Shown one piece after another: positions 4,233 to 58,693 of a DNA stretch of 64,000 nucleotides. The notes below the pieces were generated by a model. That model did not search any database, had not been told where the DNA came from, and saw only the letters and a list, made by a program, of their open reading frames with translations. The stretch lies in NCBI GenBank assembly GCA_964016885.1, contig OZ024742.1:37572001-37636000 (forward strand), given 5' to 3'. Origin of the DNA: Eledone cirrhosa. Its lineage: Eukaryota. Position numbers and translations under genes: made by a program. Every line of letters starts with the position of its first letter. Positions within the stretch are counted from its first letter, which is position 1.

Positions 4233-5501
4233 CTAATTCTCTTGTTTTATTGTTTGTTTTCCATGAGAGACTTGCCTGTGATGAGTCAAACTCCTATTCA
4301 CAGAGAAAGTTCTACCACAGATGTCACAGCGATATGGTTTCTCACCTGTGTGAACAGGCTTGTGACGAGTTAAACTTTGATTATCAGAGTATGATTTACC
4401 ACAAATATCACACCTATAAGGTCTTTCACCTGTGTGACCACGTATATGAAGTGTTAAATGAGTATTCTGAGAGAATGTTTTACCACAGATATCACAGTGG
4501 TATGGTTTTTCACCTGTGTGAACACGTACATGTTGAGTTAAATGACCATTCTGAGAGAATGTTTTACCACAGGTATTACAATGGTATGGTTTCTCACCAG
4601 TGTGAGTACGTATATGTCTAGTTAGTCTACTACTGCTAGAGAATGTTTTGCCACAGATATCGCAGCGGAATGGTTTATCTCCAGTGTGACCTTTTATGTG
4701 ACTAGCCAAACTATTACATCCAGAGAAAGTTTTACCACAGATATCGCAACGGTATGGTTTCTCACCACTGTGAATAAGTTTGTGGTTAGTCATGTTTCCT
4801 CTCACAGAGAACGTTTTTCCACAGATATCACAACGATGTGGTTTTTCCCTTGTGTGAACAGATTTGTGAACATTTAAATAGGAACTTCGTGAGAATGTTT
4901 TACCACAAACACCACACTGATATGGTTTTTCTCCTGTATGAATACGTATATGACGAGTTAAACTATCAATCTGTGAAAAGGATTTCCCACAGGTATCACA
5001 ATGATATGGTTTCTCACCTGAGTGAGTATATTTGTGTCTACTCAAATGTCCAAATTGTGTGAATCTTCTACCACAAATATCACAGTGGTAAGGCTTTTCA
5101 TCTGTATGAATACGTTTGTGATTCGTTAAAGTACTGCTCTGAGAGAAAGTTTTGTCACAGATATCACAGCGATAAGGTTTTTGGCTTCTATGATTACGTT
5201 TGTGTCTCGTCAGATGACATCTTTGAGAGAATACTTTACCACAGATTAAACATTCAAAATCCTTCTGATCTGACTGAACACCTTTAGAATAAGAACGGTT
5301 TTTACCAGCTGTTTTGCTGTGCATTTTAGAATACTTCAGCTTTAAGCTTGTAAGAAGTACATTATATTGTGTGAATGTTTTCTTATGGATGTCAAAGTGA
5401 TATGATTTCTTCTGTGTATCTCCACATGTCTCATGAGATATGTCGCTAGGTTCAGACTTAATTTCATCACAAACTGGTCTTTCACACACTTTATCCTCCA
5501 T
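4233..5501 (-). CDS. C2H2 zinc-finger protein, 12 tandem fingers (copy 1, 422 aa)
   Basis: Intact ORF with 12 CxxC-x12-HxxxH fingers joined by TGEKP-type linkers. The ~80-aa N-terminus includes a decayed finger (SYHFDIHKKTF). No KRAB, SCAN or BTB domain recognisable. Confidence 0.95.
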   Translation of the reverse strand: MEDKVCERPVCDEIKSEPSDISHETCGDTQKKSYHFDIHKKTFTQYNVLLTSLKLKYSKMHSKTAGKNRSYSKGVQSDQKDFECLICGKVFSQRCHLTRHKRNHRSQKPYRCDICDKTFSQSSTLTNHKRIHTDEKPYHCDICGRRFTQFGHLSRHKYTHSGEKPYHCDTCGKSFSQIDSLTRHIRIHTGEKPYQCGVCGKTFSRSSYLNVHKSVHTREKPHRCDICGKTFSVRGNMTNHKLIHSGEKPYRCDICGKTFSGCNSLASHIKGHTGDKPFRCDICGKTFSSSSRLTRHIRTHTGEKPYHCNTCGKTFSQNGHLTQHVRVHTGEKPYHCDICGKTFSQNTHLTLHIRGHTGERPYRCDICGKSYSDNQSLTRHKPVHTGEKPYRCDICGRTFSVNRSLTHHRQVSHGKQTIKQEN

Positions 5502-5922
5502 AATTTTCTTACAAATATTCTAAAAATGTTTATTTTCAAATGCTTAATGCAGAATAATAAATTCTCTGAAACTTCCTAATAAATATTGAAGCTCTAATAT
5601 ATTTCCTCTGACAGTAAAATAAGATATTTGACAAAGTCTGTAAATTTCTGTTATAAAGAAATAGTTTCAAAATATTTTATTATGACAGTTACTTTTCTAG
5701 GAATTAAAAATCAATATTCAAACAGCCTCCAGTTTTCATTATATATCCAAATATGAAAGACATTACACCAACAGAATATTCATGTTATAACCTTTCTATA
5801 ATCTCAATTAAAATCAAAGTTACAGAGAACAGTTACTTGTGTTCTTGATAATGTCAGTTTTCTGGTTTCAAAATTTGATAAATCTTGAATCAACAATTAC
5901 CATCTCAATGTCACCACAAACC

Positions 5923-7135
5923 CTGCAATAAATAAATATAAGGTAGAAAGGGTGAAGAACAGTTAACATAAGGTTATTGGGGTGAAGTAATTATACATGA
6001 TCATCATTTTAAATTTGTTTACTATGCTGCCATGGGTTAGACAGGTCGTCACGTTCTGAGGTGACCACCTCTTGCTCATACATTTTATTCTTGTAGCAAC
6101 ATATATACAGAAACTATGTACATTAAGTCTTCAGTAAATATACTATTGTATATTTAGTGAGGCTGCCTGTGAGACGTGGCTGACAGAGATTCTCTTGTGT
6201 ACAATAAAAGTGGACACGATATAAAAAATGAAGGAAACAGCCTGTCTGGCCTTGTGTCTATATAAGAAAGCATTATTTACATCAGGGCGGTGGATTGGCA
6301 GTATCGGTAAAGCGTCAGACAGCATGGTTTGCGACATAGTTATGACCCTTTACGTTCTGAGTTCAGATCCCGCCGAGGTTAGTTTTGCTTTTCATCCTTA
6401 CGGGGTTGTTAAAATAAAGTACCAGTAATGCACTGACGTAATTTGCTGGCCTTGTGCCAAAAGTAGAAACAATTATTTAGATCTACTATTGATGGGGTTT
6501 ATGACAGAAATATAAACATTCAACAATCTACTAGTAATGGTTGCTAAAATGTACAAAATATTACATTTTCATTTAAATATTTCTAATTGATGTGTTTAAT
6601 TAACACATATTTAATTAGAGATTAAACAGATGAGAAGCTACAAAAACGCTACGGAGCATATAGAATTATATTAATTACTTTTAACTGATTGTTAATAGTT
6701 ATGTATAATGCGTTTACACTGTTGTTTAATGTTTTCAAATTTCGTTAAAATGAATATAACCAAACACGTTAAACACAAGACAACCCCCTTCACACACACA
6801 CGTATGTATATATATATATATAGCGGCGATGAATTAGTTTTGCGAGGTTTTTTATATGAAATATAAATATATATATACAAGTGTAGGAACAAAGTCAAAA
6901 GATAAAACTAAGGATGTCCAAAATATAGGAAGATTCATTACAAACTGATTTGGTTGAAATGAAACTGTTGTCAAAGAAAGAATAACAATGGAGGGGAACA
7001 TTAGGACACTATGTCACAATTAATAACAAATACATCAATGTTACCATGAATAGTGGTGTTAAATAGTTTATAAAATTCAACATTACTGGTGTTTACTTTT
7101 CAATAGAGATTAAAACAATGTAAAGAACAGCTCAC
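5923..7135 (-). other. Putative 5'UTR intron of ZNF copy 1
   Basis: Minus-strand donor ATG|GTGAGC at 7135 and acceptor tatttatttattgcAG| at 5923. Both sites have counterparts in all five copies. No transcript evidence. Confidence 0.5.
6285..6476 (+). mobile_element. tRNA-derived SINE with Deu/Nin-like domain
   Basis: A-box-like tggcagtatcggt, B-box-like gagttcagatcc, then ttttcatccttacggggttgttaaaataaagtaccagt. Same 3' end as 1555-1724. Confidence 0.72.
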
Positions 7136-10842: not shown

Positions 10843-10884
10843 ATCATCATGGTTTAATGTACATCTTCCACGCTAGCATAGGTT

Positions 10885-11970: not shown

Positions 11971-13140
11971 TCAGGATTTCTTACCTGTGTGAACAGGTTT
12001 ATGACGAGTTAAACTTTGATTATCAGCATATGATTTACCACAAATATCACAACTATATGGTCTCTCACCTGTGTGACTACGTATATGAAGTGTTAAATGA
12101 CCTCTCTGAGAGAAAGTTTTACCACAGGTATCACAGTGAAATGGCTTTTCACCTGTGTGAACACGTACATGTTGAGTTAAATGACCATTCTGAGAGAATG
12201 TTTTACCACAAGTATTACAATGGTATGGTTTCTCACCAGTGTGAGTACGTATATGTCTAGTTAGTCTATTATTGGTAGAGAATGTTTTTGTACAGATATC
12301 ACAGTGGTATGGTTTATCTCCAGTGTGAACTTGTACATGACTGGCCAAACTATTACATCCAGAGAAAGTTTTACCACAGCTATTGCAACGGAATGGTTTC
12401 TCACCACTGTGAATACGTTTGTGGTTAGTCATGTTTCCTCTCCCAGAGAACGTTTTTCCACAGATATCACAACGATGTGGTTTTTCCCTTGTGTGAACAG
12501 ATTTGTGAACCTTTAAATAAGAACTTCGTGAGAATGTTTTACCACAGACACCACACTGATATGGTTTTTCTCCTGTATGAATACGTATATGATGAGTTAA
12601 ACTATCAACCTGTGAGAATGATTTCCCACAGGTATCACAATGATATGGTTTCTCACCTGAGTGAGTATATTTGTGTCTACTCAAATGTCCAAATTGTGTG
12701 AATCTTCTACCACAAATATCACAGTGGTAAGGCTTTTCATCTGTATGAATACGTTTGTGATTCGTTAAAGTACTGCTTTCTGAAAAGGTTTTGTCACAGA
12801 TATCACATCGGTGTGCTTTTTTGCTTCTGTGAATACGTTTATGTCTAGTTAAATACGAATTCTGAGAGAATACTTTACCACAGATTAAACATTCAAAATC
12901 CTTCTGATCTGACTGAACACCTTTAGAATAAGAACGGTTTTTACCAGCTGTTTTGCTGTGCATTTTAGAATACTTCAGCTTTAAGCTTGTAAGAAGTACA
13001 TTATATTGTGTGAATGTTTTCTTATGGATGTCAAAGTGATATGATTTCTTCTGTGTATCTCCACATGTCTCATGAGATATGTCGCTAGGTTCAGACTTAA
13101 TTTCATCACAAACTGGTCTTTCACACACTTTATCCTCCAT
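11971..13140 (-). CDS. C2H2 zinc-finger protein, 11 fingers (copy 2, 389 aa)
   Basis: Intact ORF, paralog of copy 1, ends HTGKKS*. Minus-strand AATAAA at 11438-11443. Confidence 0.95.
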   Translation of the reverse strand: MEDKVCERPVCDEIKSEPSDISHETCGDTQKKSYHFDIHKKTFTQYNVLLTSLKLKYSKMHSKTAGKNRSYSKGVQSDQKDFECLICGKVFSQNSYLTRHKRIHRSKKAHRCDICDKTFSESSTLTNHKRIHTDEKPYHCDICGRRFTQFGHLSRHKYTHSGEKPYHCDTCGKSFSQVDSLTHHIRIHTGEKPYQCGVCGKTFSRSSYLKVHKSVHTREKPHRCDICGKTFSGRGNMTNHKRIHSGEKPFRCNSCGKTFSGCNSLASHVQVHTGDKPYHCDICTKTFSTNNRLTRHIRTHTGEKPYHCNTCGKTFSQNGHLTQHVRVHTGEKPFHCDTCGKTFSQRGHLTLHIRSHTGERPYSCDICGKSYADNQSLTRHKPVHTGKKS

Positions 13141-18796: not shown

Positions 18797-21700
18797 CATG
18801 TATGGCTGGGTGTATTAACATTGTATATATACCTGGTCTGTCCATGTATGGCTGAGTGTATTAACATTGTATATATACCTGGTCTGTCCATGTATGGCTG
18901 GGTGTATTAACATTGTATATATACCTGGTTTATCCATATATGGCGGGGTGTATTAACATCGTATATATACCTGGTTTGTCCATGTATGGCTGGGTGTATT
19001 AACATTGTATATATACCTGGTCTGTCCATATATGGCTGGGTGTATTAACATTGTATATATACCTGGTCTGTCCATGTATGGCTGGGTGTATTAACATTGT
19101 ATATATACCTGGTCTGTCTATATATGGCTGGGTGTATTAACATTGTATATATACCTGGTCTGTCCATATATGGCTGGGTGTATTAACATTGTATATATAC
19201 CTGGTCTGTCCATGTATGGCTGGGTGTATTAACATTGTATATATACCTGGTCTGTCCATATATGGCTGGGTGTATTAACATTGTATATATACCTGGTTGT
19301 CCATGTATGGCTGGGTGTATTAACATTGTATATATACCTGGTTTGTCCATGTATGGCTGGGTGTATTAACATTGTATATATACCTGGTCTGTCCATGTAT
19401 GGCTGGGTGTATTAACATCGTATATATACCTGGTCTGTCCATATATGGCTGGGTGTATTAACATTGTATATATACCTGGTCTGTCCATGTATGGCTCTGT
19501 GTATTAACATTGTATATATACCTGATCTGTCCATGTATGGCTGGGTGTATTAACATTGTATATATACCTGGTTTATCCATGTATGGCTGGGTGTATTAAC
19601 ATTGTATATATACCTGGTTTATCCATATATGGCTGGGTGTATTAACATTGTATATATACCTGGTCTGTCCATGTATGGCTGGGTGTATTAACATTGTATA
19701 TATACCTGGTCTGTCCATATATGGCTGGGTGTATTAACATTGTATATATACCTGGTCTGTCCATGTATGGCTGGGTGTATTAACATTGTATATATATCTG
19801 GTCTGTCCATGTATGGCTGGGTGTATTAACATTGTATATATACCTAGTTTGTCCATATATGGCTGGGTGTATTAACATTGTATATATATCTGGTCTGTCC
19901 ATATATGGCTGGGTGTATTAACATTGTATATATACCTGGTCTGTCCATATATGGCTGGGTGTATTAACATTGTATATATACCTGGTTTATCCATATATGG
20001 CTGAGTGTATTAACATTGTATATATACCTGGTCTGTCCATATATGGCTGGGTGTATTAACATTGTATATATACCTGGTTTATCCATATATGCCTGGGTGT
20101 ATTAACATTGTATATATACCTGGTTTATCCATATATGGCTGGGTGTATTAACATTGTATATATACCTGGTTTGTCCATGTATGCCTGGGTGTATTAACAT
20201 TGTATATATACCTGGTCTGTCCATGTATGGCTGAGTGTATTAACATTGTATATATACCTGGTCTGTCCATGTATGGCTGGGTGTATTAACATTGTATATA
20301 TACCTGGTCTGTCCATATATGGCTGAGTGTATTAACATTGTATATATACCTGGTTTATCCATATATGGCTGGGTGTATTAACATTGTATATATACCTGGT
20401 TTATCCATATATGGCTGGGTGTATTAACATTGTATATATACCTGGTTTGTCCATGTATGCCTGGGTGTATTAACATTGTATATATACCTGGTCTGTCCAT
20501 GTATGGCTGAGTGTATTAACATTGTATATATACCGGGTCTGTCCATGTATGTCTGGGTGTATTAACATTGTATATATACCTGGTTTATCCATATATGGCT
20601 GGGTGTATTAACATTGTATATATACCTGGTCTGTCCATATATGGCTGAGTGTATTAACATTGTATATATACCTGGTCTGTCCATATATGGCTGGGTGTAT
20701 TAACATTGTATATATACCTGGTCTGTCCATGTATGGCTGGGTGTATTAACATTGTATATATACCTGGTCTGTCCATATATGGCTAGGTGTATTAACATTG
20801 TATATATACCTGGTTTATCCATATATGGCTGGGTGTATTAACATTGTATATATACCTGGTCTGTCCATGTATGGCTGGGTGTATTAACATTGTATATATA
20901 CCTGGTCTGTCCATGTATGGCTGGGTGTATTAACATTGTATATATACCTGGTCTGTCCATGTATGCCTGGGTGTATTAACATTGTATATATACCTGGTCT
21001 GTCCATGTATGCCTGGGTGTATTAACATTGTATATATACCTGGTTTATCCATATATGGCTGAGTGTATTAACATTGTATATATACCTGGTCGGTCCATGT
21101 ATGCCTGGGTGTATTAACATTGTATATATATCTGGTCCGTCCATGTATGCCTGGGTGTATTAACATCGTATATATACCTGGTTTATCCATGTATGGCTGG
21201 GTGTATTAACATTGTATATATACCTGGTTTATCCATATATGGCTGGGTGTATTAACATTTTATATATACCTGGTCTGTCCATGTATGGCTGGGTGTATTA
21301 ACATTGTATATATACCTGGTTTGTCCATATATGGCTGGGTGTATTAACATTGTATATATACCTGGTTTATCCATGTATGGCTGGGTGTATTAACATTGTA
21401 TATATACCTGGTTTGTCCATATATGCCTGGGTGTATTAACATTGTATATATACCTGGTCTGTCCATGTATGGCTGAGTGTATTAACATTGTATATATACC
21501 TGGTCTGTCCATGTATGGCTGAGTGTATTAACATTGTATATATACCTGGTCTGTCCATGTATGGCTGAGTGTATTAACATTGTATATATACCTGGTCTGT
21601 CCATGTATGCCTGGGTGTATTAACATTGTATATATACCTGGTCTGTCCATGTATGGCTGAGTGTATTAACATTGTATATATACCTGGTCTGTCCATGTAT

Positions 21701-24700
21701 GGCTGAGTGTATTAACATTGTATATATACCTGGTCTGTCCATGTATGCCTGGGTGTATTAACATTGTATATATACCTGGTTTATCCATATATGGCTGGGT
21801 GTATTAACATTGTATATATACCTGGTTTATCCATATATGGCTGGGTGTATTAACATTGTATATATACCTGGTTTATCCATATATGCCTGGGTGTATTAAC
21901 ATTGTATATATACCTGGTTTATCCATATATGGCTGGGTGTATTAACATTGTATATATACCTGGTCTGTCCATGTATGGCTGGGTGTATTAACATTGTATA
22001 TATATCTGGTCCGTCCATGTATGCCTGGGTGTATTAACATTGTATATATACCTGGTTTATCCATATATGGCTGGGTGTATTAACATTGTATATATACCTG
22101 GTCTGTCCATGTATGGCTGAGTGTATTAACATTGTATATATACCTGGTCTGTCCATGTATGCCTGGGTGTATTAACATTGTATATATACCTGGTTTGTCC
22201 ATGTATGGCTGAGTGTATTAACATTGTATATATATCTGGTCCGTCCATGTATGCCTGGGTGTATTAACATTGTATATATACCTGGTTTATCCATATATGG
22301 CTGGGTGTATTAACATTGTATATATACCTGGTCTGTCCATGTATGGCTGAGTGTATTAACATTGTATATATACCTGGTCTGTCCATGTATGCCTGGGTGT
22401 ATTAACATTGTATATATACCTGGTCTGTCCATGTATGGCTGAGTGTATTAACATTGTATATATATCTGGTCCGTCCATGTATGCCTGGGTGTATTAACAT
22501 TGTATATATACCTGGTTTATCCATATATGGCTGGGTGTATTAACATTGTATATATACCTGGTCTGTCCATGTATGGCTGGGTGTATTAACATTGTATATA
22601 TACCTGGTCTGTCCATGTATGGCTGGGTGTATTAATATTGTATATATACCTGGTTTATCCATATATGGCTGGGTGTATTAACATTGTATATATATCTGGT
22701 CCGTCCATGTATGCCTGGGTGTATTAACATTGTATATATACCTGGTCTGTCCATGTATGGCTGGGTGTATTAACATTGTATATATACCTGGTCTGTCCAT
22801 GTATGCCTGGGTGTATTAACATTGTATATATACCTGGTCTCTCCATGTATGCCTGGGTGTATTAACATTGTATATATATCTGGTCCGTCCATGTATGCCT
22901 GGGTGTATTAACATTGTATATATACCTGGTCTGTCCATATATGCCTGGGTGTATTAACATTGTATATATACCTGGTCTGTCCATGTATGGCTGAGTGTAT
23001 TAACATTGTATATATACCTGGTTTATCCATGTATGCCTGGGTGTATTAACATTGTATATATACCTGGTCTGTCCATGTATGCCTGGGTGTATTAACATTG
23101 TATATATACCTGGTCTGTCCATGTATGCCTGGGTGTATTAACATTGTATATATACCTGGTCTGTCCATATATGCCAGGGTGTATTAACATCGTATATATA
23201 CCTGGTTTATCCATATATGGCTGGGTGTATTAACATTGTATATATACCTGGTCTGTCCATGTATGGCTGGGTGTATTAACATTGTATATATACCTGGTCT
23301 GTCCATGTATGGCTGGGTGTATTAACATTGTATATATACCTGGTCTGTCCATGTATGCCTGGGTGTATTAACATTGTATATATACCTGGTTTATCCATAT
23401 ATGGCTGGGTGTATTAACATTGTATATATACCTGGTTTATCCATGTATGCCTGGGTGTATTAACATTGTATATATACCTGGTCTGTCCATGTATGCCTGG
23501 GTGTATTAACATTGTATATATACCTGGTTTGTCCATATATGGCTGGGTGTATTAACATTGTATATATACCTGGTCTGTCCATGTATGGCTGGGTGTATTA
23601 ACATTGTATATATACCTGGTCTGTCCATATATGGCTGGGTGTATTAACATTGTATATATACCAGGTCTGTCCATGTATGCCTGGGTGTATTAACATCGTA
23701 TATATACCTGGTTTATCCATATATGGCTGGGTGTATTAACATTGTATATATACCTGGTTTATCCATGTATGCCTGGGTGTATTAACATTGTATATATACC
23801 TGGTCGGTCCATGTATGCCTGGGTGTATTAACATTGTATATATATCTGGTCTGTCCATGTATGCCTGGGTGTATTAACATTGTATATATACCTGGTTTAT
23901 CCATATATGGCTGGGTGTATTAACATTGTATATATACCTGGTCTGTCCATGTATGCCTGGGTGTATTAACATTGTATATATACCTGGTCTGTCCATGTAT
24001 GGCTGAGTGTATTAACATTGTATATATACCTGGTCTGTCCATATATGCCTGGGTGTATTAACATCGTATATATACCTGGTTTATCCATGTATGGCTGGGT
24101 GTATTAACATTGTATATATACCTGGTTTATCCATATATGGCTGGGTGTATTAACATTTTATATATACCTGGTCTGTCCATGTATGGCTGGGTGTATTAAC
24201 ATTGTATATATACCTGGTTTGTCCATATATGGCTGGGTGTATTAACATTGTATATATACCTGGTTTATCCATGTATGGCTGGGTGTATTAACATTGTATA
24301 TATACCTGGTTTGTCCATATATGCCTGGGTGTATTAACATTGTATATATACCTGGTCTGTCCATGTATGGCTGAGTGTATTAACATTGTATATATACCTG
24401 GTCTGTCCATGTATGGCTGAGTGTATTAACATTGTATATATACCTGGTCTGTCCATGTATGGCTGAGTGTATTAACATTGTATATATACCTGGTCTGTCC
24501 ATGTATGCCTGGGTGTATTAACATTGTATATATACCTGGTCTGTCCATGTATGGCTGAGTGTATTAACATTGTATATATACCTGGTCTGTCCATGTATGG
24601 CTGAGTGTATTAACATTGTATATATACCTGGTCTGTCCATGTATGCCTGGGTGTATTAACATTGTATATATATCTGGTCCGTCCATGTATGCCTGGGTGT

Positions 24701-27700
24701 ATTAACATTGTATATATACCTGGTTTATCCATATATGGCTGGGTGTATTAACATTGTATATATACCTGGTCTGTCCATGTATGGCTGGGTGTATTAACAT
24801 TGTATATATACCTGGTCTGTCCATGTATGGCTGGGTGTATTAATATTGTATATATACCTGGTCTGTCCATGTATGGCTGGGTGTATTAACATTGTATATA
24901 TACCTGGTCTGTCCATGTATGCCTGGGTGTATTAACATTGTATATATACCTGGTCTGTCCATGTATGCCTGGGTGTATTAACATTGTATATATATCTGGT
25001 CCGTCCATGTATGCCTGGGTGTATTAACATTGTATATATACCTGGTCTGTCCATATATGCCTGGGTGTATTAACATTGTATATATACCTGGTCTGTCCAT
25101 GTATGGCTGAGTGTATTAACATTGTATATATACCTGGTTTATCCATGTATGCCTGGGTGTATTAACATTGTATATATACCTGGTCTGTCCATGTATGCCT
25201 GGGTGTATTAACATTGTATATATACCTGGTCTGTCCATATATGCCAGGGTGTATTAACATCGTATATATACCTGGTTTATCCATATATGGCTGGGTGTAT
25301 TAACATTGTATATATACCTGGTCTGTCCATGTATGGCTGGGTGTATTAACATTCTATATATACCTGGTCTGTCCATGTATGGCTGGGTGTATTAACATTG
25401 TATATATACCTGGTCTGTCCATGTATGCCTGGGTGTATTAACATTGTATATATACCTGGATAATCCATATATGGCTGGGTGTATTAACATTGTATATATA
25501 CCTGGTTTATCCATGTATGCCTGGGTGTATTAACATTGTATATATATCTGGTCCGTCCATGTATGCCTGGGTGTATTAACATTGTATATATACCTGGTCT
25601 GTCCATATATGCCTGGGTGTATTAACATTGTATATATACCTGGTCTGTCCATGTATGGCTGAGTGTATTAACATTGTATATATACCTGGTTTATCCATGT
25701 ATGCCTGGGTGTATTAACATTGTATATATACCTGGTTTATCCATGTATGCCTGGTTGTATTAACATTGTATATATACCTGGTCTGTCCATATATGGCTGG
25801 GTGTATTAACATTGTATATATACCTGGTCTGTCCATGTATGCCTGGGTGTATTAACATTGTATATATACCTGGTCTGTCCATATATGCCAGGGTGTATTA
25901 ACATCGTATATATACCTGGTTTATCCATATATGGCTGGGTGTATTAACATTGTATATATACCTGGTTTATCCATATATGCCTGGGTGTATTAACATCGTA
26001 TATATACCTGGTCTGTCCATGTATGCCTGGGTGTATTAACATTGTATATATACCTGGTTTATCCATATATGGCTGGGTGTATTAACATTGTATATATACC
26101 TGGTTTATCCATGTATGCCTGGTTGTATTAACATTGTATATATACCTGGTCTGTCCATATATGGCTGGGTGTATTAACATTGTATATATAACTGGTCTGT
26201 CCATGTATGCCTGGGTGTATTAACATTGTATATATACCTGGTCTGTCCATGTATGCCTGGGTGTATTAACATTGTATATATACCTGGTCTGTCCATGTAT
26301 GGCTGGGTGTATTAACATTGTATATATACCTGGTATGTCCATATATGGCTGGGTGTATTAACATTGTATATATACCTGGTCCGTCCATATATGGCTGGGT
26401 GTTTTAACATTGTATATATACCTGGTTTGTCCATATATGGCTGAGTGTATTAACATCGTATATATACCTGGTTTATCCATATATGGCTGGGTGTATTAAC
26501 ATTGTATATATACCTGGTCTGTCCATGTATGGCTGGGTGTATTAACATTGTATATATACCTGGTTTATCCATATATGGCTGGGTGTATTAACATTGTATA
26601 TATACCTGGTCTGTCCATGTATGGCTGGGTGTATTAACATTGTATATATACCTGGTCTGTCCATATATGGCTGGGTGTATTAACATTGTATATATACCTG
26701 GTTTGTCCATATATGGCTGGGTGTATTAACATTGTATATATACCTGGTCTGTCCATGTATGCCTGGGTGTATTAACATTGTATATATACCTGGTCTGTCC
26801 ATGTATGCCTGGGTGTATTAACATTGTATATATACCTGGTTTATCCATATATGGCTGGGTGTATTAACATTGTATATATACCTGGTCTGTCCATGTATGC
26901 CTGGGTGTATTAACATTGTATATATACCTGGTCTGTCCATGTATGCCTGGGTGTATTAACATTGTATATATACCTGGTTTATCCATATATGGCTGGGTGT
27001 ATTAACATTGTATATATATCTGGTCCGTCCATATATGGCTGGGTGTATTAACATTGTATATATACCTGGTTTATCCATGTATGCCTGGGTGTATTAACAT
27101 TGTATATATACCTGGTTTGTCCATGTATGCCTGGGTGTATTAACATTGTATATATACCTGGTCTGTCCATGTATGCCTGGGTGTATTAACATTGTATATA
27201 TACCTGGTCTGTCCATATATGGCTGGGTGTATTAACATTGTATATATACCTGGTCTGTCCATATATGGCTGGGTGTATTAACATTGTATATATACCTGGT
27301 TTATCCATATATGGCTGGGTGTATTAACATTGTATATATACCTGGTTTATCCATATATGGCTGGGTGTATTAACATTGTATATATACCTGGTTTATCCAT
27401 GTATGGCTGGGTGTATTAACATTGTATATATACCTGGTCTGTCCATGTATGGCTCGGTGTATTAACATTGTATATATAACTGGTCTGTCCATGTATGGCT
27501 GGGTGTATTAACATTGTATATATACCTGGTCTGTCCATGTATTCCTGGGTGTATTAACATTGTATATATACCTGGTCTGTCCATGTATGCCTGGGTGTAT
27601 TAACATTGTATATATACCTGGTTTATCCATATATGGCTGGGTGTATTAACATTGTATATATACCTGGTTTATCCATGTATGGCTGGGTGTATTAACATTG

Positions 27701-30700: not shown

Positions 30701-31867
30701 TGGTTTATCCATGTATGCCTGGGTGTATTAACATTGTATATATACCTGGTCTGTCCATATATGGCTGGGTGTATTAACATTGTATATATACCTGGTCTGT
30801 CCATGTATGGCTGGGTGTATTAACATTGTATATATACCTGGTTTATCCATGTATGCCTGGGTGTATTAACATTGTATATATACCTGGTTTATCCATATAT
30901 GGCTGGGTGTATTAACATTGTATATATACCTGGTTTGTCCATGTATGGCTGGGTGTATTAACATTGTATATATACCTGGTTTGTCCATGTATGCCTGGGT
31001 GTATTAACATTGTATATATACCTGGTCTGTCCATATATGCCTGGGTGTATTAACATTGTATATATACCTGGTCTGTCCATGTATGGCTGGGTGTATTAAC
31101 ATTGTATATATACCTGGTTTGTCCATGTATGGCTGGGTGTATTAACATTGTATATATACCTGGTCTGTCCATATATGGCTGGGTGTATTAATATTGTATA
31201 TATACCTGGTTTGTCCATGTATGGCTGGGTGTATTAACATTGTATATATACCTGGTTTGTCCATGTATGCCTGGGTGTATTAACATTGTATATATACCTG
31301 GTTTGTCCATGTATGCCTGGGTGTATTAACATTGTATATAGACGTTGTTTATCCATATATGGCTGGGTGTATTAACATTGTATATATACCTGGTCTGTCC
31401 ATATATGGCTGGGTGTATTAACATTGTATATATACCTGGTTTGTCCATATATGGCTGGGTGTATTAACATTGTATATAGACGTTGTTTATCCATATATGG
31501 CTGGGTGTATTAACATTGTATATATACCTGGTTTATCCATATATGGCTGGGTGTATTAACATCGTATATATACCTGGTTTGTCCATGTATGGCTGGGTGT
31601 ATTAACATTGTATATATACCTGGTTTATCCATATATGGCTGGGTGTATTAACATCGTATATATACCTGGTTTGTCCATGTATGGCTGGGTATTAACATTG
31701 TATATATACCTGGTTTATCCATATATGGCTGGGTGTATTAACATCGTATATATACCTGGTTTGTCCATGTATGGCTGGGTGTATTAACATTGTATATATA
31801 TACCAGGTTTATCCATATATGGCTGGGTGTATTAACATTGTATATATATACCAGGTTTATCCATGTA
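18797..31867. repeat. 46-bp satellite array 2, about 13.1 kb and 284 units
   Basis: Uninterrupted 46-bp period; same unit and same flanks as array 1. Confidence 0.99.
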
Positions 31868-33596: not shown

Positions 33597-34680
<1,084 letters not shown>

Positions 34681-43519: not shown

Positions 43520-44002
43520 TTATTTTATGTCTGCTTTTCATACTGGCATTGGTTGGTCGCTACTGCCTGAGTCAGTTCCTAACTGGAGTTACTGCTCTCC
43601 TAGAGAGGTGATTGAAATAGGTCTCGTTAATGCATTCCAAATGTTGGCATTGTTTCTACAGCGAGATGTCCTTCTTAACACATTACAGAATGTATTGATT
43701 ATATTTTGTCATAACAATTCTAAAGAGGTTGTTTTATCCATTGCAAGGTTAGAGAGAGTTTTTCACTGCATGAAGTCTTTGTCCTTTCAAAGTGAACATT
43801 ACTGAGAGATATTTGATTGAGAGTGATAGCCAAGAGTTGAAAGAGAAAAGAGTGAGAGAATAGATCTGAGTATGTAGGGGAAACATGAGTGATAGTATGG
43901 TAGGGAAACAGAGGAGTAGAGGTAGACACATGTTAATTGTTGGTAGTGGATTGGTAGAGTAGAAAACAGCATGAGCAATGTAATGGACTACCCATAGGGA
44001 TA

Positions 44003-46096
44003 GCGTGTGCAGCATCGGTGCCATGTAAGCAGAAAAAAAACCACCCCAAAAGTGCAATTTGGGCAACTTCAGCGGTCCGACTTGCCAGGAAAGAACGTCG
44101 GAACGCTGAACGGGAATATAAACTGCATAAATCAGATGCCAACAGAAAAATGCGGAATAAATCTTCTAACCATCTCAAGCAAGTGACAAAGAAGGCAGTG
44201 CTTGAATTTGAACAGTGCATAGCAACCAATACTGACGGTAAGGTGTTCTGGAAATATGTTCATTCAAAGCAGATACCTCACTCTCAAGTTGGTCCTCTTC
44301 GCAATCCCCACACAAGCCAGATCACTGATGATCCCAAAGAATGCGCAGAACTCATTGCTGAGTGCTATGCAAGTATATTTACTGTTGAAAACCAGAATGT
44401 ACCATCTCTAACATCAAATTCCATAACAACTATGGAATTTACACCTGCAATGTTGCGACGTCACCTTAAGAATAAGCGCAACTATGCCTCCCCTGGTCTT
44501 GATGGTGTTACATACCTGCTTCTCAAACATGGCGGGTATTTCCTTTTGCGCCAGCTTTCTTTCTTACAATACCGTCTCAACAATGGTGCTACTCCGGAGC
44601 AGTGGAAAACTGCCAGTATCATTCCCCTGTTCAAAAAGGGCAACAGCATGTCACCTGTCAACTATCGTCCAGTCAGTCTTACTAGCTGTATGGCCAAACT
44701 GATGGAATCCTGTGTCAGAGAAACACTTTGGAACTTCTGGAGCTCTCACAGCCTCATCCGGCCCTCACAGTTTGGATTTATCCCTAACTCCAGCTGCTCT
44801 GATCAGCTTATCTAGTTCCTTGAAGACATCACCCGGATCACTGGCAGCGGCTCATGGGTGGATGTTGTTTACCTTGACTTTGCTAAGGCTTTTAATTCTG
44901 TGCCACACAAAAGACTTATGGCAAAACTCTCTGCAATGGGTGTGAGGGATGATCTTTTCGACTGGTTGAAATCCTTCATTCTCAGCCGAAAAAAAGTAAT
45001 CACGGTCTACGACAGCATTCTTCACCATATGAGATGTCATCTGGTGTACCACAGGGATCTGTTCTTGGTCCCCTTTTGTTTGTGGCATATATTAATGACA
45101 TAGATGCCAACTTACAGAATGCCACGGTACTAAAATATGCAGATGACATCAAGCTGTACCTTGAAATCAAAAGGACTGATCCTGAAATCTACAACTCTTT
45201 CCTACAATCAGACCTGGACACAATGCAGCAATGGATCACAGACTGGCAACTGAAGCTGGCTGTGGACAAGTGTACTACTATGCATTTTGGGAGGAAAAAT
45301 CCAGCGTCCCCATACTCCCTCCACAACACTGATATCAAGAAGTCCTCTTGTGAACGTGACCTGGGCATTACTGTCAGCAGCGATTTGCGTTGGACAAAGC
45401 ATGTCTCTAAGATTGTCAAGAAGGCCGAGGGTGTCTTGGCATCACTCAGCAAGACCTTTGTTAGCCGCTCTCCAGCCATCTATTTAAAACTGTATACAGC
45501 TATGGAACGACCACACTTGGAATTCGCATCATCAGTCTGGAACCCCTATCTTGCTCAGAACATTGACCTGGAAACTGTTCAGAGACGTGCAACCAAGCGC
45601 ATACCCTCCATCAGACACCTACCATACTCTGAACGCCTTGCTTCCCTGGGCATGGATTCATTGAAGCTCCGACGTCTGGCAATGGACTTGGTGAATACCC
45701 ACAAAGTTATTAACCATCTCGCCAATTGCAACCCTGAGCACCTTTTTGATCTCCATGTGTCTAACACACGTGGACATGCCTACAAAATCAGAAAACAGCA
45801 CAGCTCCCATGACTTTCGTAGACATTTATTCACGCTCAGTGTTGCTGAAGCATGGAACAAACTGCCTGCATCAGTTGTTAGCTGCCGAGACACTGTGTCC
45901 TTTAAGACACTCATGCTTCCCGAAATACGCCAAAACTACACCTGATGTACCCCTTCCATACACATGCACACGTGTGTATCATGACTCATGCACTATTCAT
46001 TTTCCTGATGTTTGTACATTACGCTATGTACTATACCTACAGTTTTTGATGAGTTGTAGTGCACCTGAGCACTGTACACAATATTTCATTATTATT
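44003..46096 (+). mobile_element. 5'-truncated CR1/L2-group LINE (RT with stop and frameshifts)
   Basis: SPGLDG, PLFKKG..NYRPVSLTS, QFGF, YLDFAKAFNSVPH, SGVPQGSVLGPLLF, YADDIK, RGHAYK..WNKLP; (ATT)n tail; empty site gggataagtc at 11401 and 33027. Confidence 0.95.
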
Positions 46097-46664
46097 ATAA
46101 GTCATAGGATGAAATAGCTTTTCTAGATATTTTATTAAAATTTTAAGTCAGACACAAAAGTACATAAGTCACAAAACCCAACTGTCAACTGGTCATAATA
46201 TCAAAATAGTGACAAATGTCTGTGTAACCAGACTGGGTATTAAAGTTAATCCAAAATAAATTGCAGAAGATCACATATTTATATAACATTAAATAAATTA
46301 TTACAACATTTCATTTGTTATTTACACAAATTTTCTACCAGATATATGGTGACAATGACACATGTAAATCTCCATTCAGTTCCATTACCATATTGTAGAA
46401 CATTTTGTAATGACAGTTAAAGAAAATCTCCAGCTCATGTTTGTCTGAGATAAAACAACAAAGATAATGTAGTTTGAAAACACAGCCTTTCTCCATTTAT
46501 TTGTTCAGTTCTGAAAGATTTCATTGCATCAATAGTCTCACAGCAATTCTATTGTGGCATGAAATAATAATTTGTACAAATTCTTCATTATTTTCTTGTT
46601 TATGTGTCATGGAGCATTGCAATGAGTAAAACTACCATCCTTAGTGGATATTTCTTCATGAATA

Positions 46665-47834
46665 TCAGGATTTCTTACCCGTATGAACATTTTTATGACG
46701 AGTTAAACTGTGATTATCAGCATATGATTTACCACAAATATCACAACTATATGGTCTCTCACCTGTGTGACTACGTATATGAAGTGTTAAATGACCTCTC
46801 TGAGAGAATGTTTTACCACAGGTATCACAGTGAAATGGCTTTTCACCTGTGTGAACACGTACATGTTGAGTTAAATGACTATTCTGAGAGAATGTTTTAC
46901 CACAGGTATCACAATGATATGGTTTCTCACCAGTGTGAGTACGTATATGTCCAGTTAGTCTATCACTGGTAGAGAATGTTTTTGTACAGATTTCACAGTG
47001 GTATGGTTTATCTCCAGTGTGAACTTGTACATGATTGGCCAAACTATTACATCCAGAGAAAGTTTTACCACAGATATCGCAACGGTATGGTTTCTCACCA
47101 CTGTGAATACGTTTGTGGTTAGTCATGTTTCCTCTCGCAGAGAACGTTTTCCCACAGATATCACAACGATGTGGTCTTTCCCATGTGTGAACAGATCTGT
47201 GAACCTTTAAATAAGAACTTCGCGAGAATGTTTTACCACAAACACCACATTGATATGGTTTTTCTCCTGTATGAATACGTATATGATGAGTTAAACTATT
47301 AAGCTGTGTGAATGATTTCCCACAGGTATCACAATGATATGGTTTCTCACCTGAGTGAGTATTTTTGTGTCTACTCAAATGTCCAAATTGTGTGAATCTT
47401 CTACCACAAATATCACAGTGGTAAGGCTTTTCATCAGTATGAATACGTTTGTGATTCGTTAAAGTACTGCTTTCTGAAAAGGTTTTGTCACAGATATCAC
47501 ATCGGTGTGCTTTCTTGCTTCTGTGAATACGTTTATGTCTAGTTAAATACAAATTCTGAGAGAATACTTTACCACAGATTAAACATTTAAAATCCTTCTG
47601 ATCTGACTGAACACCTTTAGAATAAGAACGGTTTTTACCAGCTGTTTTGCTGTGCATTTTAGAATACTTCAGCTTTAAGCTTGTAAGAATTACATTATAT
47701 TGTGTGAATGTTTTCTTATGGATGTCAAAGTGATATGATTTCTTCTGTGTATCTCCACATGTCTCATGAGATATGTCGCTAGGTTCAGACTTAATTTCAT
47801 CACAAACTGGTCTTTCACACACTTTATCCTCCAT
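46665..47834 (-). CDS. C2H2 zinc-finger protein, 11 fingers (copy 4, 389 aa)
   Basis: Intact ORF paralogous to copies 1, 2 and 5. Confidence 0.95.
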   Translation of the reverse strand: MEDKVCERPVCDEIKSEPSDISHETCGDTQKKSYHFDIHKKTFTQYNVILTSLKLKYSKMHSKTAGKNRSYSKGVQSDQKDFKCLICGKVFSQNLYLTRHKRIHRSKKAHRCDICDKTFSESSTLTNHKRIHTDEKPYHCDICGRRFTQFGHLSRHKNTHSGEKPYHCDTCGKSFTQLNSLTHHIRIHTGEKPYQCGVCGKTFSRSSYLKVHRSVHTWERPHRCDICGKTFSARGNMTNHKRIHSGEKPYRCDICGKTFSGCNSLANHVQVHTGDKPYHCEICTKTFSTSDRLTGHIRTHTGEKPYHCDTCGKTFSQNSHLTQHVRVHTGEKPFHCDTCGKTFSQRGHLTLHIRSHTGERPYSCDICGKSYADNHSLTRHKNVHTGKKS

Positions 47835-48927: not shown

Positions 48928-50037
48928 TTAACTGAGCAGTGAAAACATATCTCTTGCTCTCAGTAGTCTGTTAGTCAGTGTCACTTTAACAAAAGAAGTG
49001 AAAACACACGTCTGGTCCTTAACATTCAGTTGGTTAATGTCGCCTTAGCACTGAAAATATGAGCTCAGCGTTCAGGTATCTATTAGTGTCACTTTAGATG
49101 AGCAGTAAAAACACATCTAGCCCTCAGCATTGAAAACACACCCCGGGTCTTCAGCAGTTAGTTAGTCAGTATTGCGTTAGCTGAGCAGTGAAAAAACAGC
49201 TTTCACCCTAAGCAATTTTTTAACCAGTGTCACCTTAGTCAAACAATCAAAACTCACCTCTGGCATTCAACAGCCTGTTAATCAGTGTTGCTTTAGCTGA
49301 GCAATGAAAACACACTTCTGGTTCTGAGCACTTTGTTAGTCAGTGTTACGTTAGCTGAGCAGTGGAAACTCACCTCTGGCCCTTGGCAGTCTGGTAGCTA
49401 ATGTTGCCTTAGCTGAGAAATGAAAATGCAACTCTGGCACTGTGCAGCCAAAGTCTGTAAGTCGGTGTTGCTTTACCTGAGCAATGAAAACTTATGTCTA
49501 GCCCTCAAAAGTCAGCAGCCTGTTAATTAAAGTCCCATTAGCTGAGCAGTGAAAACATGACTCTGGCCCTCAGCAGGCTTTTAGCGAGAGTTACCTTAGC
49601 TGAGAAGTAAAAACACACTTCTGGCCTACAACTGTCTGTTAATCAGTGATGCTTTAGCTGAAAGTTGAAAACACTCCTAGCACTAAACAATTAGTGCAGG
49701 TATGAGCAACCTTTTTTCGAGTAGTGGGTTGCATAGGATGTGGCTCATCATAAGGCAAACTGCACCACTAAAGAATCCATTTTGAAATTAGGTGTGTAGG
49801 TGTATCACTCACAAAGCCAAACGGGTCGCAGTTTGGCCATGACTGTATTAGTGTATACTTAACTGAGCAGTGAAAACATGCACCAGAGCCTCAGCTGTCT
49901 ATTAGTCAGCGTCACATTAGCTGAGCAGTGAAAACACACCTCCGTCTCTCAGTATTCAGCAGCCTGTTAGTAAGTGTCACATCAGATGAGCACTGCAAAC
50001 ACGCCTGGTCGTCAGTAGTTTGTTAATCAGTGTCATC
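48928..50037. repeat. 58-bp diverged tandem repeat (cassette C)
   Basis: Paralog of 14249-15385. Confidence 0.88.
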
Positions 50038-51965: not shown

Positions 51966-52041
51966 CTGTAGGCAACATCTCTTTTATATACTACATTTAT
52001 GAAGAATGTCATCATTGGGTCAATAACAATATATATATATA

Positions 52042-52252: not shown

Positions 52253-52354
52253 GTTTTATCTCGCTCTCAACTTCCTGTTCCCGTCCGGTAGATTTAACAC
52301 TAATTGTCTGTTTTAAAAAAATGTCACCATTTATATTTAAACCTAAATTATTTT

Positions 52355-55987: not shown

Positions 55988-56840
55988 TATATATCTGGTT
56001 TGTCCATGTATGGCTGGGTGTATTAACATTGTATATATACCTGGTCTGTCCATATATGGCTGGGTGTATTAACATTGTATATATATCTGGTTTGTCCATA
56101 TATGGCTGGGTGTATTAACATTGTATATATACCTGGATCGTCCATATATGGCTGGGTGTATTAACATTGTATATAGACGTTGTTTATCCATATATGGCTG
56201 GGTGTATTAACATTGTATATATACCTGGTTTGTCCATATATGGCTGGGTGTATTAACATTGTATATATACCTGGTTTATCCATATATGGCTGGGTGTATT
56301 AACATTGTATATAAATCTGGTTTGTCCATATATGGCTGGGTGTATTAACATTGTATATATACCTGGTTTATCCATATATGGCTGGGTGTATTAACATTGT
56401 ATATATACCTGGTCTGTCCATATATGGCTGGGTGTATTAACATTGTATATATACCTGGTTTATCCATATATGGCTGGGTGTATTAACATTGTATATATAT
56501 CTGGTTTGTCCATATATGGCTGGGTGTATTAACATTGTATATATACCTGGTCTGTCCATATATGGCTGGGTGTATTAACATTGTATATATATCTGGTTTG
56601 TCCATATATGGCTGGGTGTATTAACATTGTATATATACCTGGTCTGTCCATATATGGCTGGGTGTATTAACATTGTATATAGATGTTGTTTATCCATATA
56701 TGGCTGGGTGTATTAACATTGTATATAGATGTTGTTTATCCATATATGGCTGGGTGTATTAACATTGTATATAGACCTGGTTTATCCATATATGGCTGGG
56801 TGTATTAACATTGTATATATATACCAGGTTTATCCATGTA
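55988..56840. repeat. 46-bp satellite array 4, about 18 units (plus partial unit 54347-54379)
   Basis: Same unit; almost all are the ccatatatgg variant. Confidence 0.97.
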
Positions 56841-57523
56841 ACAAACATATAAAAAAAAATGTGAAAAACACAACCTAACTCCAAAAGATGAAATAACAGG
56901 AGTAAAAATAAACATATCACGACCATTGCATCATCAATATATGATGCTAAGTAAGAATATGTGTGTACAAGTGTTGATATGTGTATGTTTATCAGTGTGT
57001 TTTAGCTTTTTGTTGTGTGTAATGTATCTGCATTTGTGAGTGTCATTTGGTGCATGTGTATTGGTTTGAACATAGATGGGACATTAGTGTGGGGCACAGT
57101 GGGGAAAGTAGATTAGATGAAGAAGGGCTGCGCATTCAGTCCATAGGGGTGGGGGCAATATATGCAGAAAAAAATGAACTTCAGTTCCCTCAGGTGGCGC
57201 GAGTTCATGGGTCCAGTGCAGGATGCCAGGCCAAAGACTGTTCCATTATCATATTGTAGAACATTTTGTAATGACAGTTAAAGAAAATCTCCAGCTCATG
57301 TTTGTCTGAGATAAAACAACAAAGATAATGTAGTTTGAAAACACAGCCTTTCTCCATTTATTTGTTCAGTTTTGAAAGATTTCATTGCATCAATAGTCTC
57401 ACAGTAATTCTATTGTGGCATGAAATAATAATTTGTACAAATTCTTCATTATTTTCTTGTTAGTGTCATGGAGCATTGCAATGGGTCAAACTACCACCCT
57501 TAGTGGATATTTCTTCATGAATA

Positions 57524-58693
57524 TCAGGATTTCTTACCCGTGTGAACATTTTTATGACGAGTTAAACTGTGATTATCAGCATATGATTTACCACAAATAT
57601 CACAACTATATGGTCTCTCACCTGTGTGACTACGTATGTGAAGTGTTAAATGACCTCTCTGAGAGAATGTTTTACCACAGGTATCACAGTGAAATGGTTT
57701 TTCACCTGTGTGAACACGTACATGTTGAGTTAAATGACTATTCTGTGAGAATGTTTTACCACAGGTATTACAATGGTATGGTTTCTCACCAGTGTGAGTA
57801 CGTATATGTCCAGTTAGTCTATCACTGGTAGAGAATGTTTTTGTACAGATATCACAGTGGTATGGTTTATCCCCAGTGTGAACTTGTACATGATTGGCTA
57901 AACTATTACATCCAGAGAAAGTTTTACCACAGCTATCGCAACGGTATGGTTTCTCACCACTGTGAATACGTTTGTGGTTAGTCATGTTTCCTCTCCCAGA
58001 GAACGTTTTCCCACAGATATCACAACGATGTGGTCTTTCCCTTGTGTGAACAGATCTGTGAACCTTTAAATAAGAACTTCGTGAGAATGTTTTACCACAA
58101 ACACCACACTGATATGGTTTTTCTCCTGTATGAATACGTATATGATGAGTTAAACTATTAAGCTGTGTGAATGATTTCCCACAGGTATCACAATGATATG
58201 GTTTCTCACCTGAGTGAGTATTTTTGTGTCTACTCAAATGTCCAAATTGTGTGAATCTTCTACCACAAATATCACAGTGGTAAGGCTTTTCATCAGTATG
58301 AATACGTTTGTGATTCGTTAAAGTACTGCTTTCTGAAAAGGTTTTGTCACAGATATCACATCTGTGTGCTTTTTTGCTTCTGTGAATACGTTTATGTCTA
58401 GTTAAATACGAATTCTGAGAGAATACTTTACCACAGATTAAACATTTAAAATCCTTCTGATCTGACTGAACACCTTTAGAATAAGAACGGTTTTTACCAG
58501 CTGTTTTGCTGTGCATTTTAGAATACTTCAGCTTTAAGCTTGTAAGAAGTACATTATATTGTGTGAATGTTTTCTTATGGATGTTAAAGTGATATGATTT
58601 CTTCTGTGTATCTCCACATGTCTCATGAGATATGTCGCTAGGTTCAGACTTAATTTCATCACAAACTGGTCTTTCACACACTTTATCCTCCAT
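57524..58693 (-). CDS. C2H2 zinc-finger protein, 11 fingers (copy 5, 389 aa)
   Basis: Intact ORF paralogous to the other copies. Confidence 0.95.
   Translation of the reverse strand: MEDKVCERPVCDEIKSEPSDISHETCGDTQKKSYHFNIHKKTFTQYNVLLTSLKLKYSKMHSKTAGKNRSYSKGVQSDQKDFKCLICGKVFSQNSYLTRHKRIHRSKKAHRCDICDKTFSESSTLTNHKRIHTDEKPYHCDICGRRFTQFGHLSRHKNTHSGEKPYHCDTCGKSFTQLNSLTHHIRIHTGEKPYQCGVCGKTFSRSSYLKVHRSVHTRERPHRCDICGKTFSGRGNMTNHKRIHSGEKPYRCDSCGKTFSGCNSLANHVQVHTGDKPYHCDICTKTFSTSDRLTGHIRTHTGEKPYHCNTCGKTFSQNSHLTQHVRVHTGEKPFHCDTCGKTFSQRGHLTLHIRSHTGERPYSCDICGKSYADNHSLTRHKNVHTGKKS

What the first reader, a model, noticed from the sequence alone, without database searches (positions are those of the whole stretch)
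4233..58693. Paralog differences concentrate in the DNA-contacting helix residues
The ~80-aa N-termini differ by only 0-2 residues, yet helices (-1..6) differ across copies 1/2/4/5. F1: QRCHLTR/QNSYLTR/QNLYLTR/QNSYLTR. F4: QIDSLTR/QVDSLTH/QLNSLTH/QLNSLTH. F6 position -1: V/G/A/G. F8: SSSRLTR/TNNRLTR/TSDRLTG/TSDRLTG. F9: QNGH/QNGH/QNSH/QNSH. F10: QNTH/QRGH/QRGH/QRGH. F11: DNQS/DNQS/DNHS/DNHS. F3 (QFGHLSR) is invariant. This resembles the diversifying selection of KRAB-ZNF/TE arms races or PRDM9, but no effector domain is recognisable here.
Basis: partly seen in the sequence, partly recalled or inferred. Interest (0 to 1): 0.7.

Follow-up and report, generated by a model that had tools for sequence, protein, structure and literature searches.

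The report
Octopus zinc-finger tandem duplicates drifting apart
Five neighbouring copies of a zinc-finger gene, likely from an octopus, keep their zinc-binding frame while their DNA-facing residues change about as fast as silent sites, which likely reflects loosened constraint plus sequence swapping between copies, with only a borderline hint of an adaptive burst; this is an ordinary case of a known kind of gene expansion.

Summary
The helix differences are real. The window holds five tandem single-exon poly-C2H2 genes (four intact, one pseudogene), likely octopod. 13 of 44 contact columns vary versus 34 of 262 others (p=0.011), but not more than non-structural scaffold columns (20 of 99, p=0.28). 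Contact omega is 0.83 (95% about 0.45-1.47); M7/M8 p=0.87. With four outside paralogs it is 0.91. The main contacts (-1, 3, 6) sit at 0.5; change falls on positions 1 and 2. The identical N-termini are no sign of a conserved effector: copies 2-5 differ there at flank level, and copy 1 shares a 278-nt conversion tract with copy 2 despite 14% 3' flank divergence. Selection is not excluded: the stem of copies 3-5 carries six contact changes (omega about 6, p=0.023; 0.067 after correction), and array dS is inflated about five-fold, partly by finger-to-finger conversion. It is not PRDM9-like (finger identity 0.65) and has no KRAB or SET; the leader has a SUMO-consensus motif. The scan noted similar clusters elsewhere in this genome. 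Known kind, weak example.

The parts
4233..5501 (-). Copy 1 CDS, 422 aa, 12 C2H2 fingers, long C-terminus ending IKQEN; the older paralog
   Evidence: 3' flank 14% diverged from copy 2
5224..5501 (-). 278-nt tract of copy 1 identical to copy 2 (leader to F1 -1), likely gene conversion
   Evidence: 0 of 20000 permutations reach this run length
5139..5223 (-). Unconverted island in copy 1 (F1 helix to F2 -1), about 23% diverged in its 100-column bin, with as many silent as replacement changes
   Evidence: exact match 5109-5253 in contigs of runs X1 and X4
4981..5138 (-). 158-nt tract identical between copies 1 and 2 (F2 helix to F4 start), which explains the invariant F3
   Evidence: p=0.00015
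5451..5462 (-). IKSE, residues 14-17 of the leader (all intact copies): SUMO consensus psi-K-x-E (motif recalled); candidate repression handle, untested
4239..4250 (-). Second psi-K-x-E (IKQE) at the C-terminus of copy 1; absent from copies 2-5, which stop after F11
11971..13140 (-). Copy 2 CDS, 389 aa, 11 fingers
33597..34680 (-). Copy 3, pseudogene: five small frameshifts, an exact 84-nt loss of one finger, a stop, two Cys-to-Ser changes (lower end approximate)
   Evidence: four of the indels also in a contig of run X4
46665..47834 (-). Copy 4 CDS, 389 aa, 11 fingers
46710..47300 (-). Span of the six contact changes that separate copies 3-5 from copies 1/2: F4 D2N (47300), F7 S6N (47035), F8 position 2 to D (46964), F8 R6G (46952), F9 G2S (46880), F11 Q2H (46710); copy 3 is deleted at two of them
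57524..58693 (-). Copy 5 CDS, 389 aa, 11 fingers
18797..31848 (.). 46-bp satellite, 284 copies; the same repeat separates all units (9607-10258, 42553-42851, 55987-56837)
49126..49661 (.). 58-bp repeat x9 upstream of the coding exon of copies 2-5 (also 14465-15009, 35032-35575, 59986-60521); not reported for copy 1
43994..46098 (+). Broken LINE inserted in the 3' flank of copy 4 only
   Evidence: (RVT_1)

Best explanation
Five tandem poly-C2H2 genes (one older copy, four young duplicates, one of them dead) keep their zinc-binding scaffold under purifying selection while their recognition helices change at about the silent rate, likely because constraint on target choice loosened after duplication and because gene conversion likely homogenised some tracts and left others. 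Shown: the unit structure; omega 0.14 at structural sites, 0.47 at other scaffold sites and 0.83 at contact sites; two long identical tracts between copies 1 and 2. Inferred: copy 1 and the ancestor of copies 2-5 are old paralogs; short finger-to-finger conversions add silent changes inside the array; the proteins are likely sequence-specific DNA-binding repressors that would act through a SUMO-acceptor motif in the leader rather than a folded effector domain; and drift at helix positions 1 and 2 would shift specificity only modestly. A short adaptive episode on the stem of copies 3-5 is possible but not shown.
For: Fixed-class codon ML: contact 0.83, =1 not rejected (p=0.54); omega 1.5 and 2.0 rejected (2dlnL 4.2 and 9.5). 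Same under F3x4 (0.76) and in 8 genes (0.91 / 0.82; 1.3 rejected). Site models not significant: M7/M8 p=0.87 (4 copies) and 0.26 (8 genes). Primary contacts -1/3/6 have omega 0.51, equal to non-structural scaffold 0.47 (p=0.85) in the 4 copies. Leader variation among copies 2-5 (2 of 243 nt) matches flanks (42 of 2488; p=0.43). Copies 1 and 2 share 278- and 158-nt identical tracts while their 3' flanks differ by 14%. 5 of 19 derived silent alleles lie in runs of 18 nt or more identical to another finger (0.87 expected, p=0.0014). Silent changes among copies 2/4/5 do not peak at the helices (0.045 near, 0.088 far per site).
Against: The stem of copies 3-5 has contact omega 5.8-6.4 (p=0.023, one of six branches); the count version is 6 contact versus 3 silent changes, p=0.067 after simulation for the best of five branches. 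A two-class mixture on helix sites gives an upper class of 1.3-2.1, with p from 0.04 to 0.33 over four tests and two null distributions. Silent variation in the array is 19 of 202 sites versus 1.7% in flanks (p=3e-8), and templated changes explain only part of it, so dS may be inflated and omega understated; in copies 2/4/5 alone, masking templated codons raises contact omega to 1.3-1.5 (not significant). In 8 genes the primary contacts do exceed other scaffold sites (0.89 vs 0.58, p=0.018). Four to eight sequences give little power. The test for clustering of incompatible sites was not significant (p=0.80), so tract-like recombination among copies 2-5 rests on 33% incompatible pairs alone. 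Expression, binding and SUMOylation are untested.
Confidence: 0.55

Rival explanations
1. Diversifying selection on a subset of helix residues (arms race with mobile DNA): selection keeps divergent finger arrays against homogenising conversion, which deepens the local genealogy, inflates dS and hides omega above 1.
For: Stem of copies 3-5: contact omega about 6, p=0.023. The array is a divergence peak inside near-identical units: copy 2 vs 4 differs 3.7% in the array and 0.5% upstream; a peak of divergence is the published signature of selection under conversion (PMC3924837, passages). Helix mixture class 1.3-2.1. Outgroup helices mostly show the copy 1/2 state, so most stem changes are derived.
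Against: No class-wide or site-model test is significant. The branch was picked after looking; corrected p=0.067. Four of the six stem changes are at position 2 and none at -1 or 3, whereas selected poly-ZF clades concentrate at -1/3/6 (PMC2604467 section 9). Six non-contact scaffold changes lie on the same branch. Silent changes in the young copies are lower near helices, not higher.
Confidence: 0.33
2. All young copies are redundant and decaying towards pseudogenes; helix variation is plain loss of function.
For: Copy 3 is dead. R6G in F8 likely removes a base contact (recognition code recalled). Copies 2-5 lost F12 and the C-terminal motif.
Against: No Cys, His, Phe or helix Leu changes in any of 11 fingers of the four intact copies. 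Structural omega is 0.14-0.16, also among copies 2/4/5 alone. The terminal branch of copy 5 rejects neutrality (p=0.002 or lower).
Confidence: 0.07
3. A PRDM9-like hotspot specifier whose finger minisatellite turns over by unequal exchange.
For: One exact 84-nt finger loss in copy 3 and some finger-to-finger micro-conversion.
Against: Within-array finger identity averages 0.65 (max 0.80-0.86) against 0.81-0.88 in the minisatellite-like arrays elsewhere in this genome. Finger order is collinear across all copies and distant paralogs. No PR/SET, KRAB or SSXRD hit.
Confidence: 0.02
4. Assembly artefact: haplotypes or read errors laid out as tandem copies.
For: Copies 4 and 5 are 99.6% alike upstream; copy 3's indels sit in short runs typical of read error.
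Against: Units differ by a private LINE, satellite lengths and 17-85 array substitutions. Copy 1's island is matched exactly by contigs from two samples and four copy 3 indels by one; these runs are one study and may include the assembly's source.
Confidence: 0.03

Closest known systems
Coleoid cephalopod C2H2 zinc-finger expansion (PMC9068888 passages; PMC12513265 abstract and section 16)
   Same: Clustered, lineage-expanded poly-C2H2 genes in a genome that is likely octopod; targets unknown; the arms-race question is called open in PMC12513265.
   Different: The passages read describe number, clustering and expression, not codon-level selection or conversion; placement in their trees was not tested here.
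Lineage-specific poly-ZF expansions under positive selection (Emerson and Thomas, PMC2604467 passages and section 9)
   Same: Recent clustered paralogs, conserved scaffold, faster helix, short conversion tracts.
   Different: There M7/M8 is strongly significant with sites at -1/3/6; here it is not significant and change falls on positions 1 and 2. They note that small sets lack power.
KRAB-ZNF and zebrafish FiNZ-ZNF transposon repressors (PMC10547256 passages)
   Same: Poly-finger array behind a short N-terminal leader; octopus ZNF motifs are predicted there to be enriched in transposons, and base-contacting residues are reported among the most variable in the species examined.
   Different: No KRAB here; their dN/dS test was on zebrafish only (4 of 7 clades significant); no target or repression is shown for these genes.
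Divergence peaks under gene conversion, e.g. red/green opsin (PMC3924837 passages)
   Same: A coding region more diverged than its near-identical flanks in tandem duplicates.
   Different: Here part of the excess is templated from other fingers, and the silent excess does not centre on the helices in the young copies.
PRDM9 (features recalled)
   Same: Variable helix residues, whole-finger loss.
   Different: No PR/SET, no minisatellite-like finger homogeneity, multi-copy family.

Membership tests
Coleoid C2H2 expansion | Host is a coleoid cephalopod | tested here: met
   Indirect: 3.0-Gb genome with molluscan haemocyanin genes, seven unit-domain hits in tandem on C1; seven units as the octopod and nautilus pattern is recalled. 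No named relative was found.
Coleoid C2H2 expansion | Tandem poly-C2H2 genes with TGEKP linkers in clusters | tested here: met
Coleoid C2H2 expansion | Falls in an octopus-specific clade of the published tree | not tested
   The published sequences were not fetched.
Coleoid C2H2 expansion | Nervous-tissue expression | not testable with these tools
Positively selected poly-ZF expansion (Emerson and Thomas type) | M7/M8 or M1a/M2a significant | tested here: not met
   p=0.87/0.86 (4 copies); p=0.26/0.48 (8 genes); own MG94 implementation, not codeml; low power
Positively selected poly-ZF expansion (Emerson and Thomas type) | Fast sites concentrated at -1, 3, 6 | tested here: inconclusive
   omega 0.51 vs 0.47 in 4 copies; 0.89 vs 0.58, p=0.018, in 8 genes but not above 1
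KRAB-ZNF | KRAB domain | tested here: not met
   No Pfam hit in the leader or in 35 of 35 minus-strand frames of 45 aa or more upstream of copy 4; shorter exons were not scanned
KRAB-ZNF / FiNZ-ZNF (works like) | Binds and represses transposons | not testable with these tools
   No binding data; no motif prediction run
PRDM9 | PR/SET domain | tested here: not met
PRDM9 | Near-identical fingers within the array (minisatellite) | tested here: not met
   mean identity 0.65-0.66
PRDM9 | Contact omega far above 1 | tested here: not met
   0.76-0.91; 2.0 rejected

The most novel reading that the evidence does not exclude
The ancestor of copies 3-5 was re-targeted in one adaptive burst (six contact changes against one to three silent ones), selection has since held the finger array apart from its converting neighbours, and these KRAB-less proteins silence their target through a SUMO-acceptor leader: a before-and-after pair (copy 2 versus copy 4, 99.5% identical upstream) that makes a KRAB-independent zinc-finger/transposon arms race in octopus directly testable.
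Probability: 0.15. Interest if true: 0.6.

Novelty: new member of a known kind. Interest (0 to 1): 0.26.

Why it matters
Whether the huge cephalopod zinc-finger expansion is driven by an arms race with transposons is stated to be open (PMC12513265, section 16). This cluster does not settle it: its contact residues evolve near the silent rate, and the tempting contrast of a conserved N-terminus and variable helices comes from gene conversion and recent duplication. It is useful as a caution (dS in finger arrays is about five times the flank rate, so both clocks mislead) and as a small test pair: copies 2 and 4 are nearly identical except in the array.

Tried and rejected
Whole-protein homologue search was swamped by unrelated ZNFs, best identity about 53%. 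Leader-only searches found nothing credible: 0 hits; one flea protein at E=1e-3 for another family's leader; one repetitive unnamed protein at 27% identity among 1.84 billion representatives, judged spurious. The Atlas look-up gave no result for the leader. Sequencing-run search: no RNA holder listed. The RAD-seq run X6 gave no reads 99% alike. Run X5 (another organism) had no cover over copy 1's F1 helix at 88%; a hole proves nothing. Flanks as the neutral clock were rejected, since silent sites in the array exceed them about five-fold. CpG decay was considered: it fits several copy 3 lesions but none of the six stem contact changes (read). The four-gamete adjacency test was not significant. 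Donor test: three thresholds were tried (10, 15, 18 nt: p=0.098, 0.024, 0.0014); copy-3-only alleles were left out; two of the 19 silent alleles may be mis-polarised; replacement alleles showed no significant excess (2 of 24, p=0.075). The first 300 columns of one flank alignment were a non-homologous edge and were dropped. F1 and F12, and F7/F8 of L007, were left out of the 8-gene alignment. A post hoc split into fast and slow fingers (omega 1.32, p=0.079) is not counted as evidence. No structure or complex prediction was run: it would not bear on the question. Paper searches listed no dN/dS study of octopus contact residues and no paper on a SUMO motif in octopus ZNF leaders; Supplemental Fig. 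8 and Data 4 of PMC10547256 were not seen and may bear on this.
Full report
Anatomy. The minus strand carries five copies of a poly-C2H2 gene with one coding exon as far as the sequence shows: copy 1 (4233-5501, 12 fingers), copy 2 (11971-13140), copy 3 (about 33597-34680), copy 4 (46665-47834) and copy 5 (57524-58693); the intact young copies have 11 fingers. Units are separated by a 46-bp satellite of 14, 284, 6.5 and 18.5 copies. A search of the genome with the leader DNA gave 14 matches: five at 98-100% (all in the window) and nine at 74-88% elsewhere. The 40 kb on either side hold other ZNF families but no further copy. Copy 3 has five small frameshifts, an exact 84-nt finger loss, a stop and two Cys-to-Ser changes; four of its indels recur in a contig of run X4. 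The host is likely an octopod: 3.0 Gb, with molluscan haemocyanin genes of seven tandem units (the seven-unit rule is recalled).

Observation. All helix strings quoted are correct, as is the 0-2 residue difference in the leader. Of 306 array codons, 47 vary in amino acid: 13 of 44 at -1/2/3/6 versus 34 of 262 elsewhere (p=0.011), but versus 20 of 99 non-structural scaffold columns p=0.28. Positions 1 and 2 account for 10 of the 18 helix columns; position 3 varies once.

Selection tests (own MG94 codon likelihood; not codeml). Four intact copies: contact omega 0.83, scaffold 0.31 (difference p=0.0017; omega=1 p=0.54); M1a/M2a p=0.86, M7/M8 p=0.87, M8a/M8 p=0.61. Finer classes: structural 0.14, other 0.47, position 1 1.31; -1/3/6 0.51, position 2 1.91 (p=0.11 against 1); 95% range for the contact class about 0.45-1.47. 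Adding four collinear paralogs from two other clusters on the same chromosome (fingers 2-11): contact 0.91, other 0.58 (p=0.005), structural 0.15; M7/M8 p=0.26, M8a/M8 p=0.10. F3x4 frequencies lower all values slightly. A two-class mixture on helix sites gave upper classes of 1.3-2.1; of four tests, one reached p=0.077 (0.038 on the boundary null).

Why the N-terminus looks conserved. Among copies 2-5 the leader varies at 2 of 243 nt and the flanks at 42 of 2488 (p=0.43): it simply has the age of the duplication. Copy 1 is old. Its 3' flank is 14% from copy 2, about as far as from distant paralogs, and its leader family is only about 84% identical to outside paralogs, yet it matches copy 2 over 278 nt (leader) and 158 nt (F2-F3) without a difference. 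Between these lies an island (F1 helix to F2) with as many silent as replacement changes. So both the identical leader and the invariant F3 are likely conversion tracts, and copy 1's F1 difference is likely old unconverted divergence. F10 QNTH also stands in paralog L003 and QRGH in L006-L008.

What cuts the other way. The array is a divergence peak inside the young units: 19 of 202 silent sites vary against 1.7% in flanks (p=3e-8). Five of 19 derived silent alleles sit in runs of 18 nt or more identical to another finger (0.87 expected), so finger-to-finger conversion likely inflates dS, though it does not explain all of it. Masking those codons gives omega 0.89-0.94 (four copies) or 1.3-1.5 (copies 2/4/5), none significant. 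One branch stands out: the stem of copies 3-5 has contact omega 5.8-6.4 (p=0.023, six branches tested on each of two trees). By counts, the copy 4+5 branch has 6 contact, 1 position-1, 6 other, 1 structural and 3 silent changes; under omega=1, 6.7% of 2000 simulations give a best branch this extreme. Four of the six are at position 2 and none at -1 or 3. A peak of divergence under conversion can mark selection (PMC3924837, passages), but silent change in copies 2/4/5 is lower near the helices than away from them.

Effector. Pfam finds nothing in the leader or in 35 upstream frames. The leader has IKSE at 14-17 and copy 1 has IKQE at its C-terminus, both fitting the SUMO consensus (recalled). 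The motif stands in 27 of 32 leaders sampled, but these fall into about three related groups, were sampled by likeness to copy 1, and the chance per leader is 2-17%. An earlier unchecked note on another genome reports the same motif and says most of the wider family lacks it. It is a lead only.

Comparison. This fits the coleoid C2H2 expansion (PMC9068888, passages; PMC12513265, abstract and section 16). Fast helices in recent poly-ZF paralogs are long known, with selection at -1/3/6 (PMC2604467, passages and section 9). Wells et al. report base-contacting residues among the most variable, and predicted motifs enriched in transposons, for a species set that includes octopus, with dN/dS tested in zebrafish only (PMC10547256, passages; supplements not seen). 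It is not PRDM9-like: finger identity within arrays is 0.65, whereas arrays on C27, C18, C25, C28 and others reach 0.81-0.88. The scan has noted such clusters elsewhere in this genome, one with a reported omega of 2.4 (unchecked).

Verdict. Diversifying selection is not demonstrated and a strong class-wide signal is excluded; a weak or episodic one keeps about a one-in-three chance. New member of a known kind; interest 0.26.

Noticed in passing
window 18797-31848 (also 9607-10258, 42553-42851, 55987-56837): A 46-bp satellite marks each unit boundary and ranges from 6.5 to 284 copies; it may seed the unequal crossing-over that builds the array.
   Followed up: no
window 5451-5462 and 4239-4250; leaders of L003-L050: psi-K-x-E (SUMO consensus) near the N-terminus in 27 of 32 sampled ZNF leaders from about three groups (IKSE, IKCE/VKCE, IKVE), and a second at the C-terminus of long-form genes.
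   Followed up: partly
L021-L034 (G000:C27:15.76-16.84 Mb), also L035-L038, L041-L045, L047-L050: A different ZNF family with minisatellite-like fingers (within-array identity 0.81-0.88) and shuffled finger order; a much better PRDM9-like candidate than this cluster.
   Followed up: partly
window fingers F9-F11; L004, L006, L007, L008, L039, L040: The C-terminal helix trio of type QNGH-QRGH-DNQS is kept across distant paralogs while middle fingers turn over, suggesting a shared anchor site or a protein-binding role.
   Followed up: partly
window 43994-46098: A 2.1-kb broken LINE with a short-repeat tail is inserted only in copy 4's 3' flank; an 87% relative lies about 14 kb before the window.
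   Followed up: partly
window 41092-41916, 54521-55347, 1647-2884: Fragments of another LINE family (RVT_1 in one, a PHD-like stretch in another), two of them duplicated with the units.
   Followed up: no
window 62893-63282: A 390-bp near-perfect inverted repeat (96%), MITE-like, where the copy 4/copy 5 homology ends; half of it is at 52042-52252.
   Followed up: no
window 14465-15009, 35032-35575, 49126-49661, 59986-60521: A degenerate 58-bp tandem repeat upstream of the exon in copies 2-5 and not reported for copy 1; it could alter regulation.
   Followed up: no
window 5088-5620 and 46400-48100 (laid runs): Shared-leader contigs are about 4 times (X1) and 6 times (X4) deeper than the copy-1-specific contig, and copy 3's indels are listed in X4 only: a weak hint of copy-number polymorphism. 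Contig depth is not a copy number.
   Followed up: no
window 47547-47588 (run X5): One contig of another organism reads as the copy 2-type F1 (QNSY) with the ancestral Glu before it, which would make the copy 3-5 state derived.
   Followed up: partly
L011:894-1607 and L012:550-1767: A neighbouring ZNF pair 9-20 kb before the window shares a leader but has 6 versus 12 fingers, likely an internal deletion.
   Followed up: no
G000:C1:173.75-173.91 Mb and C26:21.93-22.02 Mb: Several haemocyanin genes, including a mirror-image pair on C26 whose domain scores match in pairs.
   Followed up: no
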